A DNA stretch of 20,000 nt from Cladosporium halotolerans (Eukaryota): positions 1,172,645 through 1,192,644 of the forward strand of contig NW_027191455.1 in NCBI RefSeq assembly GCF_011745625.1. The letters are read 5' to 3'. This document shows, piece after piece, positions 1-10,889 of this stretch. Every line of letters begins with the position of its first letter. Position 1 is the stretch's first letter. Position numbers and translations under genes: made by a program. A model generated the notes under the pieces. The model was not told the origin of the DNA. It did no database searches and saw nothing but the letters and a program-made list of their open reading frames with translations.

Positions 1-447
1 GTGGGCGGGAGCCCCCGGTTGCCAAGGCGTGGAAGGTCATGGAAGGTATCACGTGCAGGGCGGCGAGGGGGACAGCGAGTCGATGGAGGTGATACTCATG
101 GCAAGCATGGGGAAGAAGGAACACGAAGAGCGGCGGAGGTAACGTAATCATTGAAGTTGATTGAAGCTACATACAAAACATGATGGATAAAGAAAAGAAA
201 AATGTTTGCCGTTTGTTTGACTCGCTCGAAGAGTGATTGAGAACTCAAGAAGCGAGTGCATAGGCAAGCGACCGTGTCGCCACTTATTGTTCTCGGACAC
301 CACCCATCAGCTATGGCATATTGAGAATGCGCGATGCTGTCTCCTTTGCTGTTGTGGCTGACTAGCAGTGAGAAGTGGAGTGGTGTCCTTGTGTCCCTGG
401 GGTTAGTAGCCACGACCAATGTTGTTGGGGGGGGGGAGGGAGGGGGG

Positions 448-677
448 AAGAAGTAGTGGCAAGTAGTAGTGGCAAGCTGTTGTAGTGGCGGCGCAAAGCA
501 GGAATGGGGGTGGGGTCCTGTGTGCACCTTAGCAGTATCGATCAACGGTAGGGGATGGGGGGAAAGAAGTAGTGGCAAGTAGTAGTGGCAAGCTGTTGTA
601 GTGGCGGCACAAAGAAGGAATAGGGGGTGGAGTCCTGTGTGCATCTTAGCAGTATCGATCAACAGTAGGGGGTGGGG
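448..677. repeat. Two-copy tandem duplication, unit ~116-117 bp
   Basis: AAGAAGTAGTGGCAAGTAGTAGTGGCAAGCTGTTGTAGTGGCGGC...GTCCTGTGTGCAYCTTAGCAGTATCGATCAACRGTAGGGG starts at both 448 and 564; few differences, mostly transitions. Confidence 0.95.
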
Positions 678-997
678 TGAAATGCGCAAGGTACGAGGTA
701 CCGAGCGACGGCAGCATTTGCGAAACGCAAAGCGCGCTGGGGATCTAGGAAAACCATCCATCAGCTGTGGCATATCGAAAACGCGACGAAGCTGTCCGGC
801 GAAACGGAACGTGGTTGGTCTCCATCCTATAATTGGTTTGAGTTGACATGGGTGTGGCGGTCCTCATGTCGACATGGGTGTGGCAAGCCCATGTGTTGCG
901 CGCGGCACAAGGCAGCGGCGCAAAGTTGTGTCGGAGGAAAGGGTTGGAAGCGGGAGAAAAGGGGGTTTTTATAGTGCGCGGGGCCAAGACAACGGAA

Positions 998-1075
998 GGC
1001 TCCCGGGGGCTGGTCACCAGTAAGTCAGGCCGTCAGGCCCCCGGGGGGTGATCACCAAAAGTCAGGCCGTCAGGC
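998..1075. repeat. Two-copy ~37-38 bp tandem repeat with internal palindromes
   Basis: GGCTCCCGGGGGCTGGTCACCAGTAAGTCAGGCCGTCA (998-1035) followed by GGCCCCCGGGGGGTGATCACCAAAAGTCAGGCCGTCA (1036-1072), then GGC. Confidence 0.9.
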
Positions 1076-5717: not shown

Positions 5718-8700
5718 TCACTCCCACCTGTCAGCCAACCTAATCGGCCTGAGAGCAATGTGCCTGTAGTACACGTTGACCGACTCAATCACGCACTCCC
5801 AGCGATCGCCGGCCCTCGCCTCCGGAAAGCCCAAGCCCAACTTCTCCGGCCGCATCATCGAGCTGGTGACGCTCAGCTCCTCGAACATCACCATCACCTT
5901 GGGCTGCGCGGGCGACGGCCGGCTCATGATGTACGCGTGGCAGGTGTCGAAGGGCAGCTTGGCCTCGCCGAAGTGGTGCGCGCGGAACATCAGCATCGCG
6001 ACCCAGAAGTTCTCCGCGTACGACTTGGCGCGCGTGATCATCGCCTCGCGCGGCTGCAGGCCGGTCATGATCGTCTGGAGGTTTTCCTCGCTGAAGGGCA
6101 GGAATCGGTGGTCGGGCTGCTTGCCGGAGAGCGTGGGGCCGGAGGTCACGAGGGAGGTGCCGCTGTGGGCTTCCTTCAGCAGCGCCGCTTCGATCTGCCA
6201 GTGCAGGATCATGTCGCCGTAGCGGCGCAGGGGCGACGTGACTTTGCCGTAGTGGTCGAGGCCGAGGAGGTTGTGGCGGAGGGGCTTGGTGTTGAGGACG
6301 AGGGAGCCCATGTTGCGCACGTGCTCGATGCCGATGTGCATTGGGAGGACGCCGTTGTTGCGCTCCATGGCCGGGACACATTCGGACTGGTAGAACTCGT
6401 CCGGGTCGCGCTGGCCGGGCTTCTTGACGGAGCCGCGGTAGATGGTCGGGATCTGGCGCTCGGCGCACCAGGCCGTCGACACCTCGCAGGCCAGCAACAT
6501 CATCTCGCGGACGAGGATGTCCTGTGCTTGCTCGCCTTCGGCGAACCAGTTGGTGAGACCTTGGGTTTGCATGTTGATGACAGGATCGCCCTCGACGGAA
6601 CGGGCACCCTTGCGGTGGGGATGTTGCCACGCCAGCCCCGGGTGGGCAGCAGTTTGCCAAACACTCAATGTAGGTTTACGAGAGTCGAAGAAGATTCCGC
6701 CTGCGGCCTTCCGCTGGCGTGTACGCCCTTCCGCAAGCTTCTGCAGTTGCTTCAATTCGTTGATGTTGACTTCCTTCATGTCTGGGACAGCGCTTCGCCT
6801 TTCCGGTTGGGGCGGGACTGCCCCTCCAACGGTGATGTCAAATTGCGCCTTTTTGGATTCATCTTGCTGTCCAAGCAAGGTACTCAACTCGCTTGGAGTC
6901 AATCGTTGCACGTTCCTGATGAAGCCTGAGGTGATTTTGTGCTCCAATTTCTCGCCGTTTTCGTTCATCCTCGCGGAGAAGGTCAGACAGGGCCTGTTTG
7001 GAGCCAGAGAAAAGTTCTTATTGGTTGCCCAACGTGGCAACATCATGTAAGCCCTTTCGGGTGTGTAGATTGTCTCACCCATGTGCCTTGCCATTTTTGC
7101 AAGTGGGTTATCGCGGTCGAAGAAAGCCGTCGGGTTGGCGATGTGGACATGCACCCACCATTCCGGCTGGTTGCTGTCTGCGGAGTTTGCTCGCTCAACA
7201 GAAATTCCATCGTCAATCTCGAGGGCGGAGGCGTCATCAATGCAGTAGACGGGCAGTTCTCCCCAATCATGACGCACGTCCGCCATTTTATCAGAGAATT
7301 TGTAGCCTTTACCCATGCTCAGTAATTTATTCATCAGTTGTTGCAATGGTCTGGAGTGCTGGCTGCTGGGAAGTAGCAAGTGCTGGTCGAAACGAACGCG
7401 ATTCTCGTACGGAAGAATTGTGCCAAGCTCTTGCAGAAAGAGGAATCCGGTCTGCGCGCCTAGATCGTGATCTTCGTACAAGCCTGTAGCTTGCAGTATC
7501 AACGGTGGCAAAGCATTGATTCGTGGCAGGCCAAGGAACATGTTGTTGCACGCCCATGCTTCCATGAAACGCACCAACTCCTGGTCAGGAACGCCGAAAC
7601 GGGTGTCTGATTCGACCTTGACAGCGTCCTGATCCTTTGTAATTGCGTGCCGGACCTTGCTGGGCCCAACGTTGCCGTGCTGTGTGGGTTCGCGGCGCTG
7701 GCGGCTAGCCAAAACGATCTCCCTCGCCTGCTTGAGGAAGTTATCCACAAAGAAAGCGCCTCGTTTGCGAGTGTGGCGCTGACGCTGGGAAGCACTCATG
7801 AGCGCCATTGTCGCGTTATCGTCTTGCCATTCCCGAAGCCATTTCCTGACCTGTTCAACCGTTTTCACCTGTTGCTTGGGACGAATCTGGAGATAACCGG
7901 TGACGCGGTGGGAGCGACGATCGACATTGAAGGCAAAGCCCGCATTCATGAGTGCCCTTCGCACCGTGAACAAAGCGGTCAGCGGCAGCTTGTCACTCGG
8001 GATGCCCAACAGCGCTGAGGCAGCCGATACTAGACTGCCATAACGCAAATCTGTGTCGTGCGCCAGAATCTCATGCGCGCGATCGAGGGTCGACGCATGC
8101 TTTCGATATACCTCCAAGCTCTCCCTGTGGAAGGCGATCATCCTGCTGACAAGGGGCGCAGCAACGTGGCGAGGTACTGATATATCATTGACGTACGATT
8201 CTCTCTTCAATGCGGAAAGCTCTTCGGCATCGGCTACGTTCGGAAGATGCTCCAGAAGCGGTTCAATGAGCTTTGGGGACACCCAACCCGGGATTGCATA
8301 CTGGACTTGTCGTTCCGGGGCATTGATCCACCGGCCGTTGATCGAATAGAACTGACTCTCAACTCCAATCTTTCGCACGAAAACTGCCAGAAGACTGTCT
8401 TTCTCTGAGTTCGCGAATTCAAGTTCCACCAAATCGCCCATGAGCAAGAACCGGGGGTCGGTGATGTCGTCGTCCAGGTCTTCTGCTCGGGACGCTGCAA
8501 AGTGGGCAACCGCTTGCCGCTCGTCCTCTTCTTCTTCACGGTAACTACGTATGCTGTTGTTGTCGCCCATTTTTGTTAGGGTATTCGTAAGTTCGCTGTC
8601 CATTTCTTCGGGCATGGGCATGTCCTTGTTGTACTGCTCTTCCAAAGTTTTACCGTGCTCCTCCTGCCACTGCCGAAGTTTGGCGCGGATGCCGGTTGAG

Positions 8701-9665
8701 TCTCCTGGAATCGGTGGCGGCATGTCAGGTAGCTGAGGAGCTGATTCAGACAGCCCGGGATGAGCTTGCTGGGGCTTGTGCGAGACGTGATATCCTCGTC
8801 GGCTCTGCTGAGTAACATTGCGCTTCAGGATTGACGACAGGTAAGGTCGTATCTTGGATTGAGAGCCCTTCATCTCTTGCCTGCCTTCAGAATCCTGTCT
8901 GTGTGGTCTTCCAAGGTCTGAGAACACATTATGCGTGGCCAGTCGCGTCATCTCCCGACTGCCATCCTCTGGTGCCTCCAAAGATCCCGCCCCAGCATAC
9001 CCACGAATGCCAGTGTCTGTATGTTGAGTTTCGTGGTCCCAGCTCTTCAAGGCATCCTGTTCCATCGCATTGTTTGCAATCTCTTCGTTTGTACCAACTC
9101 GGACGACATGTCTCCCAAGAATGTCTCCAAACTCATCCTCGTCACTGGTATTGGGGCGTGCTTGTTGTACAAGTGCAGCTTCACCAGACCGCGCTTGGGT
9201 CGGCTTCTTCAGTTTGCGAGGCCATTTATCAATTGTATCGTAGAGGTAACGAATTCTTCTTGAATGCGTCTTCGAGTCCTGACCAGAAACTTGAAGGTAT
9301 GACACTTCATTTTTGACTTGTGGAAGTGATCGCGCAGATGCGGAGGTCGTTGCACGCAATGGGTAGGCCTGGAGGCGAGGCGGGATCTTCTGCTGTGCGG
9401 AACTGTGGCCATGCCATGACTGCGTCGACTCTGCGTTTGCTAACGGCAGCCCATCATCGTTGAAATTCGAATTGCAATTTTTTATCTGCGAATACGCTTG
9501 ACCACGAATGCGGTAGCGATGAATCGAAAATGTCCGCGAGACGTTCCGTGAGACGGCGCTCACTGCGCGTGAAGAGGGATGTCGGGTCGCATTTAGACGG
9601 CACCCCATGCACACATATGCCTGTCGCGTGGAACTCTGGGGTCGCACCTGGATCTGCGAGAACAT
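5718..9665 (-). CDS. cyt-4: Mitochondrial exoribonuclease II (RNB domain), Cyt-4/Dss1 homologue, 1315 aa
   Basis: RNB catalytic motif CIDDASALEIDDGIS, VHVHIANPT, and the signature HYGKVTSPLRRYGDMILHWQI; Arg/Ser-rich, acid-free N-terminus typical of a mitochondrial presequence; uninterrupted ORF. Confidence 0.9.
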   Translation of the reverse strand: MFSQIQVRPQSSTRQAYVCMGCRLNATRHPSSRAVSAVSRNVSRTFSIHRYRIRGQAYSQIKNCNSNFNDDGLPLANAESTQSWHGHSSAQQKIPPRLQAYPLRATTSASARSLPQVKNEVSYLQVSGQDSKTHSRRIRYLYDTIDKWPRKLKKPTQARSGEAALVQQARPNTSDEDEFGDILGRHVVRVGTNEEIANNAMEQDALKSWDHETQHTDTGIRGYAGAGSLEAPEDGSREMTRLATHNVFSDLGRPHRQDSEGRQEMKGSQSKIRPYLSSILKRNVTQQSRRGYHVSHKPQQAHPGLSESAPQLPDMPPPIPGDSTGIRAKLRQWQEEHGKTLEEQYNKDMPMPEEMDSELTNTLTKMGDNNSIRSYREEEEDERQAVAHFAASRAEDLDDDITDPRFLLMGDLVELEFANSEKDSLLAVFVRKIGVESQFYSINGRWINAPERQVQYAIPGWVSPKLIEPLLEHLPNVADAEELSALKRESYVNDISVPRHVAAPLVSRMIAFHRESLEVYRKHASTLDRAHEILAHDTDLRYGSLVSAASALLGIPSDKLPLTALFTVRRALMNAGFAFNVDRRSHRVTGYLQIRPKQQVKTVEQVRKWLREWQDDNATMALMSASQRQRHTRKRGAFFVDNFLKQAREIVLASRQRREPTQHGNVGPSKVRHAITKDQDAVKVESDTRFGVPDQELVRFMEAWACNNMFLGLPRINALPPLILQATGLYEDHDLGAQTGFLFLQELGTILPYENRVRFDQHLLLPSSQHSRPLQQLMNKLLSMGKGYKFSDKMADVRHDWGELPVYCIDDASALEIDDGISVERANSADSNQPEWWVHVHIANPTAFFDRDNPLAKMARHMGETIYTPERAYMMLPRWATNKNFSLAPNRPCLTFSARMNENGEKLEHKITSGFIRNVQRLTPSELSTLLGQQDESKKAQFDITVGGAVPPQPERRSAVPDMKEVNINELKQLQKLAEGRTRQRKAAGGIFFDSRKPTLSVWQTAAHPGLAWQHPHRKGARSVEGDPVINMQTQGLTNWFAEGEQAQDILVREMMLLACEVSTAWCAERQIPTIYRGSVKKPGQRDPDEFYQSECVPAMERNNGVLPMHIGIEHVRNMGSLVLNTKPLRHNLLGLDHYGKVTSPLRRYGDMILHWQIEAALLKEAHSGTSLVTSGPTLSGKQPDHRFLPFSEENLQTIMTGLQPREAMITRAKSYAENFWVAMLMFRAHHFGEAKLPFDTCHAYIMSRPSPAQPKVMVMFEELSVTSSMMRPEKLGLGFPEARAGDRWECVIESVNVYYRHIALRPIRLADRWE

Positions 9666-10141
9666 AATAGCTCGCAGAGAGCGTTGTGGCTGCTGTAGAC
9701 ACAGAGGCGCGATCCTCAGGCGAGATGAACGGAGCTACTGGGTATGCTTCTTGCGCGGAGAACTGAGACGGAGATGGCTCGGATCTTGATACAGCCGTTA
9801 GGCTGAATCGCAGATCTGCAAGGCAAGGCAACTTCAGGCAAGGCAAGGGTTCTGGGATCCTGGGAGTGAGCCGCCTGGAGAACTCGTTCAGGAATGACGG
9901 CGGTCACATCCAGACTTCGGCCGTGAACACTCGTCTCACTGGGAAGGACAACAAAGCAATCACTTTGAAACCCGTGACCATTGCCGCCCCCTGCCCCAGC
10001 GCGATCGACGAGCTCTCGAAGACTCGTTCATGCCCGCAAAGCCCGAGCGTCAGCGGCTATACCCGATCACTGGCGGAGGTCAGATTTCTTCAGTTCCTCA
10101 GACGGCACACTTCCCTTTCCTCAGCACAATCAACTGCGCAG

Positions 10142-10336
10142 GTATGTCTCCACATATGATTTCCTTCCTTCACCCATCTTCCACACTACAGGATGAACAA
10201 TCCATAGCATGTATTACCCGAAAGCCACACGGCTGCAGTGGAAACATCTCATCAACCCTCTGAATGCACTACTTGCTTCACGTTACTCTGTCAAATGGCC
10301 TGCCCTTGAGAGCTTGAACTAACGATGTTCGACCAG
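10142..10336 (+). other. Predicted 5'-UTR intron (195 nt) of cnxG, snoRNA host
   Basis: CAG|GTATGT consensus donor at 10142, ACTAAC branch point 10318-10323, first CAG acceptor 10334-10336 (alternative 10338-10340), 10 nt before the ATG at 10347; no in-frame upstream ATG exon found. Confidence 0.75.
10186..10266 (+). ncRNA. Intronic box C/D snoRNA; predicted guide for 2'-O-methylation of the 18S U equivalent to human Um172 (SNORD45-type target)
   Basis: Box C AGGATGA 10190-10196; guide TAGCATGTATTA 10205-10216, the perfect complement of conserved 18S TAATACATGCTA (rRNA sequence from memory); box D' CCGA 10218-10221; AGCC/GGCT hairpin; box D CTGA 10260-10263. The D'+5 rule points to the second U of CUAAUAC. 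Ends approximate. Confidence 0.75.
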
Positions 10337-10346
10337 ACAGTCTGCC

Positions 10347-10640
10347 ATGTGTGCACAAAAGCCACCAGCTGGCCACTTCACTATTCTCTACTTCGCCTCT
10401 GCTTCTTCATACACCCGGAAGCAGCACGACTTCTTCTCTGGCCCTCTCCCGATTTCCAAGCTTCCTGATTTGCTTGAAGAGCGGTATTCCGGTATTAAAG
10501 AGAAGGTACTGGGAAGTTGTGCTCTTACGGTGAACTTGGATTACGTGGATATGGAGGAAGAAGCGGCCAAGGCAGAGCAGTGTCTTGTCGTGCAGGAGGG
10601 CGATGAGGTAGCAATCATACCGCCAGTGAGCTCGGGATGA
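10347..10640 (+). CDS. cnxG: Molybdopterin synthase sulfur-carrier (small) subunit, MOCS2A/MoaD family, 97 aa
   Basis: FTILYFASA N-terminal strand, GIKEKVL, and the C-terminus EGDEVAIIPPVSSG typical of Pezizomycotina MOCS2A. Confidence 0.93.
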   Translation: MCAQKPPAGHFTILYFASASSYTRKQHDFFSGPLPISKLPDLLEERYSGIKEKVLGSCALTVNLDYVDMEEEAAKAEQCLVVQEGDEVAIIPPVSSG

Positions 10641-10889
10641 TCTAGAGCCCAGGTAAAACTATATTCACGACATCTCACGACCAGCCTGCAAAAGGTATCA
10701 CGGCACTTCAAAGCTGGAAGCAATGAATGATCAAACAATTTACTCCCTCAATTGCATGTCATATCACACTTCCAATGTTCTGATCACAGCCTTCGTGACG
10801 TCATTTCCATTTCATGTCAAAAGCTCCCCGGTGGAGAGAGATGGCTGCGTTTGTAACAGGTTGTAGATGTGTCACACAGCGCGGGGTGC

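What the first reader, a model, noticed from the sequence alone, without database searches (positions are those of the whole stretch)
10142..10336. Box C/D snoRNA hidden in a 5'-UTR intron of the Moco gene cnxG/MOCS2A
Seen: a consensus intron (GTATGT...ACTAAC...CAG) 3-4x longer than the other four introns here (52-59 nt), ending 10 nt before the cnxG ATG. Inside are box C AGGATGA (10190), guide TAGCATGTATTA (10205-10216), box D' CCGA, a short hairpin and box D CTGA (10260), ~59 nt upstream of the branch A. Known: 18S rRNA carries the conserved GAGCTAATACATGCTA. The D'+5 rule targets the U equivalent to human Um172, guided by SNORD45A/B and not, to my knowledge, methylated in S. cerevisiae. Inference: a molybdenum-cofactor gene doubles as a snoRNA host and shares a divergent promoter with the mitochondrial RNase cyt-4. 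ORF-based annotation would miss this.
Basis: partly seen in the sequence, partly recalled or inferred. Interest (0 to 1): 0.72.

Follow-up and report, generated by a model that had tools for sequence, protein, structure and literature searches.

The report
Conserved snoRNA in fungal cnxG intron
The untranslated first intron of a mould's molybdenum-cofactor gene carries a small nucleolar RNA that most likely marks one ribosomal RNA base for methylation; it is a known kind of RNA, but its host gene, its spread across filamentous fungi and its interchangeable second half were not found in the papers searched.

Summary
Confirmed. The 195-nt intron 10142-10336 is spliced exactly as proposed in one public run. 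It holds box C, a 12-nt guide, box D' and box D. The guide pairs 12/12 with this genome's 18S (164-175), and the D'+5 rule gives U167. A metagenome scan gave 110 loci; 62 sit at cnxG/MOCS2A and/or cyt-4, against 0 of 36 chance hits in prokaryote genomes. Donor, box D and branch point were not in the search pattern, yet all three are kept in 57 of 58 testable host loci versus 2 of 36 controls. The target is already known: Neurospora CD32 (cloned) carries the same D' guide for 18S Um167, listed as homolog of U45A/B and snoR122. Not found in print: the cnxG host, presence in Dothideomycetes and Leotiomycetes, and a swappable 3' half (no guide here, a U24-type 25S guide in 13 of 37 copies, a U44-type guide in Neurospora). 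No Rfam model matches. A second, non-conserved donor and one snoRNA-starting poly(A) contig hint at host regulation but are weak. The small RNA and the methylation were not observed.

The parts
10053..10141 (+). Non-coding exon 1 of cnxG (true start unknown)
   Evidence: X1 contig covers 10053-10138 and joins to 10334 (cut +3 = 10141/10337)
10142..10336 (+). 5'-UTR intron, 195 nt, snoRNA host
   Evidence: GT..AG junction in run X1; donor, box D and branch kept in 57 of 58 testable host loci
10186..10266 (+). Predicted mature box C/D snoRNA (~80 nt; ends inferred)
   Evidence: Boxes and guide; ends inferred from the usual C/D trimming, not observed
10190..10196 (+). Box C, AGGATGA (G in place of U at position 2)
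   Evidence: U in 33 of 37 copies; cloned Nc CD32 also reads GGAUGA
10205..10216 (+). D' guide, pairs 18S 164-175; D'+5 (A10213) points to U167
   Evidence: the first guide base, not in the search pattern, is T in 32 of 37 copies and 45 of 62 host loci vs 1 of 36 controls
10218..10221 (+). Box D' (CCGA)
   Evidence: CCGA or CTGA in 62 of 62 host loci, 16 of 36 controls
10223..10234 (+). Short hairpin after D', kept in shape, not sequence
   Evidence: a hairpin is predicted in 36 of 37 copies, z below -1 in 27 of 37
10237..10243 (+). Degenerate box C' candidate (AGTGGAA)
   Evidence: about half of 37 copies have G-T-G-G at this distance from box D; assignment is inference
10260..10263 (+). Box D (CTGA); the bases before it have no conserved guide in this lineage
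   Evidence: CTGA 15-75 nt after D' in 62 of 62 host loci vs 10 of 36 controls
10282..10336 (+). Alternative 55-nt intron from a downstream donor (GTTACT); leaves the snoRNA in the exon
   Evidence: junction 10281->10337 in X1, depth 4; donor not conserved
10318..10323 (+). Branch site ACTAAC
   Evidence: branch motif 37-65 nt after box D (median 56) in 37 of 37 copies
10347..10640 (+). cnxG/MOCS2A, molybdopterin synthase sulfur-carrier subunit, 97 aa
   Evidence: relatives' clusters are named CnxG
10773..10773 (+). Poly(A) site seen in one contig
   Evidence: X7 loose end of 20 letters, G then A run
5718..9734 (-). cyt-4 (mitochondrial RNB-family protein), divergent neighbour; stop-to-stop frame, start codon not fixed
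   Evidence: divergent in 31 of 31 host loci with a cyt-4 hit

Best explanation
A functional single-guide box C/D snoRNA hosted in the non-coding first intron of cnxG. The host pre-mRNA is transcribed and the intron removed (shown in one run). The lariat is debranched and trimmed to about 80 nt, protected by Snu13, Nop56, Nop58 and Nop1 on the C/D and C'/D' motifs (inferred from established snoRNP biology). The D' guide pairs with 18S 164-175 and Nop1 methylates the ribose of U167 (pairing shown, methylation inferred from the D'+5 rule). The intron is kept across filamentous ascomycetes because it carries the snoRNA. The D-side guide is a variable module: absent here, a U24-type 25S guide in the Leotiomycete/Xylariales clade, a U44-type 18S guide in Neurospora CD32.
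For: 12/12 pairing with own 18S; 1 of 20,000 shuffles; spliced junction; 62 of 110 metagenome hits linked to MOCS2A and/or cyt-4 vs 0 of 36 controls; MOCS2A on the same strand 122-286 nt downstream in 58 of 58, at 46-67% identity; unsearched donor + box D + branch in 57 of 58 vs 2 of 36; other intron positions show no consensus above about 55%; same guide in cloned Nc CD32 and in the Rfam SNORD45 consensus; of 7 copies of the 11-nt guide core in the genome, one is the rDNA, one is this locus, and the other five have no D' box after it.
Against: No read shows the free ~80-nt RNA or the methyl group. Box C deviates at the Snu13-bound U (role recalled). No Rfam family matches. The junction is in only 1 of 4 runs at depth 4, and intron-retaining contigs are as deep or deeper in X1, X2 and X7. 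The scan selected on the guide, so cnxG loci that lack the snoRNA could not be counted.
Confidence: 0.9

Rival explanations
1. The snoRNA also acts in cis on its host, like human SNORD86 in NOP56: snoRNP assembly favours retention or the downstream donor, giving uORF-laden transcripts that are trimmed to a snoRNA-capped, polyadenylated RNA, and so tunes CnxG output.
For: X1 holds three forms: fully spliced (depth 4), spliced from 10282 (4) and unspliced (5.3). X7's only contig is polyadenylated, unspliced and begins at 10186, 4 nt before box C. Only the fully spliced leader is free of upstream ATGs; the others have 3-7. Precedent described in PMC11028025 (passages).
Against: Contigs cannot show a 5' end; it is one contig. 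The downstream donor is weak and not conserved: 17 of 37 copies have no GT in the 41 nt after box D. The guide has an ordinary rRNA target, whereas SNORD86 is an orphan. cnxG has no known link to snoRNP supply.
Confidence: 0.12
2. The copy in this species is decaying: a once-functional snoRNA with a weakened box C and a lost D guide that is no longer made in useful amounts.
For: Box C position 2 is G where 33 of 37 copies have U; no D guide; frequent retention and a cryptic donor.
Against: The guide, D', D and spacing are intact; the other five non-rDNA copies of the guide core lack a D' box; cloned Nc CD32 and loci L093 and L109 share the G; 23 of 37 copies have no U24-type D guide.
Confidence: 0.05
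3. The conserved element is a DNA or mRNA regulatory motif of the cnxG/cyt-4 divergent promoter whose rRNA complementarity is incidental.
For: It lies between two divergent genes whose layout is conserved in 31 of 31 loci.
Against: It has four C/D boxes in order, a fixed distance to the branch point, and the same guide occurs in introns of other hosts (L112, L094) and in a cloned snoRNA.
Confidence: 0.03

Closest known systems
Neurospora crassa Nc CD32 (EU780956; PMC2780460, Table 1 and Additional file 1)
   Same: Identical 11-nt D' guide, target 18S U167, GGAUGA-type box C, about 80 nt, intronic.
   Different: CD32 also has a D guide for 18S Am161; the window copy has none, and in this genome that guide sits on a separate snoRNA in an eIF3k intron (L160). 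The sections and supplement read do not name CD32's host. PMC5824354 places family CD_32 in Sordariales only (passage; its supplements could not be read).
Vertebrate SNORD45 (Rfam RF00279) and plant snoR122
   Same: Same D' guide sequence and equivalent 18S uridine (Rfam consensus shown; homolog listing). The human number Um172 is recalled.
   Different: SNORD45 has a second D guide for the upstream adenosine; the window copy does not match RF00279 even at E up to 10. The fungal 'U45' of cluster III (PMC3596301, passages) appears to be the other, Am154-guiding RNA (Nc CD17).
U24 / Nc CD50 (25S Cm1418 in Neurospora numbering)
   Same: 13 of 37 cnxG-intron copies carry its guide before box D; D+5 gives C1422 of this genome's 25S match.
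   Different: The window copy lacks it; this genome keeps that guide at the D' position of a separate snoRNA (L169).
Human SNORD86 in NOP56 and its cytoplasmic snoRNA-capped poly(A) RNA
   Same: In both, a C/D snoRNA sits in a host intron whose alternative splicing can leave it in a longer transcript; one contig here starts at the snoRNA and ends in poly(A).
   Different: Here the second donor is not conserved, the snoRNA has an rRNA target, and no regulation is shown.

Membership tests
Box C/D methylation-guide snoRNA | Box C (RUGAUGA) near the 5' end | tested here: met
   6 of 7 bases in the window; NTGATGA in 58 of 62 host loci vs 18 of 36 controls; last five bases were in the search pattern
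Box C/D methylation-guide snoRNA | Box D (CUGA) at the 3' end | tested here: met
   62 of 62 vs 10 of 36, not in the search pattern
Box C/D methylation-guide snoRNA | Internal D' and C' boxes | tested here: inconclusive
   D' clear (CYGA 62 of 62); C' degenerate
Box C/D methylation-guide snoRNA | 10-21 nt antisense element ending one base before D or D' | tested here: met
   12/12 with own 18S 164-175
Box C/D methylation-guide snoRNA | Stable small RNA bound by Snu13/Nop56/Nop58/Nop1 | not testable with these tools
   only assembled contigs were available
Box C/D methylation-guide snoRNA | 2'-O-methylation at the D'+5 position | not testable with these tools
   needs RiboMeth-seq or mass spectrometry
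Intronic snoRNA | Lies in a spliced intron at a regular distance from the branch point | tested here: met
   junction in X1; branch motif 37-65 nt after box D in 37 of 37
Nc CD32 (CD_32) | D' guide for 18S Um167 | tested here: met
Nc CD32 (CD_32) | D guide for 18S Am161 | tested here: not met
   absent in 37 of 37 cnxG copies; present on L160
Nc CD32 (CD_32) | Same host locus (orthology) | not testable with these tools
   no Neurospora genome available; host not named in the parts read
Rfam SNORD45 (RF00279) | Score at or above the gathering threshold (42 bits) | tested here: not met
   no match; L094 from another eukaryote scores 40.8
SNORD86-type cis regulator / snoRNA-capped poly(A) RNA | 5' end at the snoRNA on a polyadenylated host transcript, and snoRNP-dependent splice choice | tested here: inconclusive
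   one contig starts at 10186; second donor not conserved; dependence untested

The most novel reading that the evidence does not exclude
The cnxG intron is a long-lived snoRNA slot in filamentous ascomycetes whose RNA swaps its 3' guide between lineages, and in this species it also caps a polyadenylated cnxG transcript and gates CnxG translation through donor choice and uORFs. That would be a fungal counterpart of SNORD86/NOP56 linking snoRNP supply to molybdenum-cofactor synthesis.
Probability: 0.12. Interest if true: 0.72.

Novelty: new member of a known kind. Interest (0 to 1): 0.42.

Why it matters
It adds an unannotated, widely conserved snoRNA family that Rfam misses and extends the 18S Um167 guide well beyond Sordariales. 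It shows three rRNA guides (18S U167, 18S A161, 25S C1422) packaged differently between fungal classes, a clean test case for guide shuffling. Practically, cnxG deletions or promoter swaps that remove the 5' UTR would also remove an rRNA methylation guide. If the snoRNA-capped transcript is real, it would tie ribosome biogenesis to molybdenum-cofactor supply.

Tried and rejected
Rfam: no gathering-level hit in the window or in 11 related loci; the four weak matches (best SNORD49, opposite strand, E 0.047) are treated as chance. Whole-RNA folding is not unusual (z -0.51) and is not used as evidence. Viral contigs: 0 matches. RF00069 in the own genome found nothing and its control did not ring, so it is uninformative; a pattern search then found the U24-type guide on L169 (1 of 18 hits looks like a snoRNA). 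The sequence-only model R1 scores the prokaryote controls too, because they were selected on the same motif; only full-length matches (window, L096, L112, weakly L094) mean anything. A model-based search of the whole own genome was not possible, so paralogs with a changed guide are not excluded. Runs X2 and X3 showed no junction at this intron and may be DNA; they are not used for or against splicing. A D-side target for the window copy: no match of 9 or more pairs to 18S ends at box D; 25S, 5.8S and snRNAs were not scanned for it. Aspergillus Afu-318 (24-nt clone, 70-nt band, between Afu7g01590 and Afu7g01600) may lie near cnxG by my recall of gene numbers, but its sequence could not be read, so it is not claimed. 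Paper searches for a prior report of the host (text searches) and for methylation maps found none. Earlier scan notes gave nothing on this locus.

Full report
Observation. The 97-aa ORF is ThiS/MoaD-family and the divergent ORF carries RNB and cyt-4 domains. Its closest named relative is from Cladosporium (79%), so the organism is a Cladosporium-like Dothideomycete. The remark about four other 52-59-nt introns was not confirmed by two motif scans; it does not affect the finding.

Target. The genome's own 18S (L008) pairs with the guide over 12 of 12 positions at 164-175, and the fifth base before D' faces U167. One of 20,000 dinucleotide shuffles of the intron produced a comparable box and guide layout. 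The 11-nt core occurs 7 times in the genome: the rDNA, this locus, and five places with no D' box after it.

Splicing. Of 4 runs laid (all assembled contigs; 4 of the 23 listed), X1 shows the junction 10141->10337, a second junction 10281->10337 from a weak donor after box D, and unspliced sequence, at depths 4, 4 and 5.3. X7, from another study, gives one unspliced contig from 10186 to a poly(A) end at 10773. X2 and X3 show no junction here and may be DNA. Only the fully spliced leader lacks upstream ATGs; the alternative and retained forms have 3-7.

Conservation. A box C + guide + D' pattern found 110 metagenome loci and 36 chance loci in prokaryote genomes. Of the 110, 58 have MOCS2A and 4 more have cyt-4 only; 0 of 36 controls have either. 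MOCS2A lies on the same strand 122-286 nt downstream in 58 of 58, at 46-67% identity; cyt-4 is divergent in 31 of 31 loci with a hit and present in 25 of 29 loci with at least 1.5 kb upstream. Features outside the pattern agree: donor, box D and branch together in 57 of 58 testable host loci, 1 of 46 other metagenome hits and 2 of 36 controls; D' is always CCGA or CTGA. In a set of 37 (the window plus 36 loci, after collapsing identical ones, leaving out L047 which lacks a MOCS2A hit, and dropping six near-duplicates: L052, L053, L078, L087, L115, L121), the base extending the duplex is T in 32, a hairpin follows D' in 36, and flanking intron positions are not conserved. Four of 20 host proteins looked up fall in named clusters: Cadophora and Hyaloscypha (Leotiomycetes), Friedmanniomyces and Cenococcum (Dothideomycetes; class names recalled); L093 groups with Xylaria and Nemania. 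The scan selected on the guide, so losses cannot be counted.

A swappable 3' half. Thirteen of the 37 copies carry CACCAAGATC before box D, one more has a mismatch at the target position, and 23 have no such guide. It pairs with 25S at 1418-1428 of this genome's match, giving C1422, the U24 site listed as Cm1418 for Neurospora CD50. All nine such copies with a full protein fall in one supported clade with Xylaria and Nemania (98/92). In the window's genome this guide sits at D' of a separate snoRNA (L169, near an Afu_514 match), and the 18S A161 guide sits at D of a third snoRNA in an eIF3k intron (L160).

Mechanism. Shown: the intron, its splicing in one run, the boxes, the pairing and their conservation. 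Inferred from established snoRNP biology: release from the lariat, trimming to about 80 nt, binding of Snu13/Nop56/Nop58/Nop1 and 2'-O-methylation of U167. I put this at 0.9. Rivals: an added cis role with a snoRNA-capped poly(A) transcript (0.12; not exclusive of the main reading), a decaying copy (0.05), a promoter motif (0.03). The cis role rests on one contig end and a donor that is not conserved (17 of 37 copies have no GT in the 41 nt after box D).

Comparison with what is known. PMC2780460 (abstract, part 1 of Background and of Results, Discussion, passages and Additional file 1 read) describes Nc CD32, a cloned intronic snoRNA with the same D' guide for 18S Um167, homolog of U45A/B and snoR122, none in the two yeasts, plus a D guide for Am161; it also reports guide separation and recombination in fungi. 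PMC5824354 (abstract, section 28 and passages; supplements not readable, and they may bear on the range claim) places CD_32 in Sordariales and documents target switches in other families. The Rfam SNORD45 consensus has the same D' guide, but the window copy matches no Rfam family. PMC11028025 (passages) gives the SNORD86/NOP56 precedent. PMC3890542, PMC5640933, PMC8216456, PMC2377427 and PMC3596301 were searched by term only and none names a molybdopterin host; listings showed no such report. So it works like CD32 and SNORD45 at D', but fails their second-guide feature, and orthology to CD32 is untested.

Verdict. Real, well supported, a new member of a known kind. The new parts are the cnxG host, the range across at least two named classes and probably a third, and the three-way swap of the D half. 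Interest 0.42.

Noticed in passing
L160:1435-1514 (G000:C13, near 440000): Un-annotated box C/D snoRNA in a 252-nt intron of eIF3k. Its D guide pairs 18S 158-166 (target A161); its D' arm pairs the adjacent 169-177, either a helper arm or a remnant of the U167 guide. No Rfam match.
   Followed up: partly
L169 (G000:C100, near 428378, minus strand): Intronic box C/D snoRNA with the U24-type 25S C1422 guide at D' and a GGGATGA box C, about 250 nt downstream of an Afu_514 snoRNA match (51.1 bits); likely a non-coding host cluster.
   Followed up: partly
L112:256-334 (minus strand): Same U167 guide in an intron of a different host whose exons read like succinate dehydrogenase flavoprotein (identity recalled from the translation, not searched).
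   Followed up: no
L094:294-385: SNORD45-type dual-guide snoRNA (40.8 bits, just under the cut-off of 42) in an intron of what reads like ribosomal protein L1/L10a (identity recalled).
   Followed up: partly
window 10143-10281: In run X1 the intron contig starts at 10143 and is not joined to exon 1, so intron-containing RNA there may be cut at the donor or start inside the intron.
   Followed up: no
window 9813-10134: Run X2 has a gap here between a 7.2-kb and a 1.8-kb contig; if X2 is RNA this would bracket the cyt-4/cnxG divergent promoter.
   Followed up: no
window 5718-9734 (minus strand): The cyt-4 frame stays open for 1338 codons, with over 400 residues before the first cyt-4 domain, and its conserved part lies further from the snoRNA than in all 31 relatives; the start codon is unclear.
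   Followed up: no
window 10334-10340: A second AG (ACAG) follows the acceptor 4 nt later; no use of it was seen.
   Followed up: no
window 1-1000: Strong G over C skew (0.34-0.36) with a 255-codon minus-strand frame that has no Pfam match.
   Followed up: no
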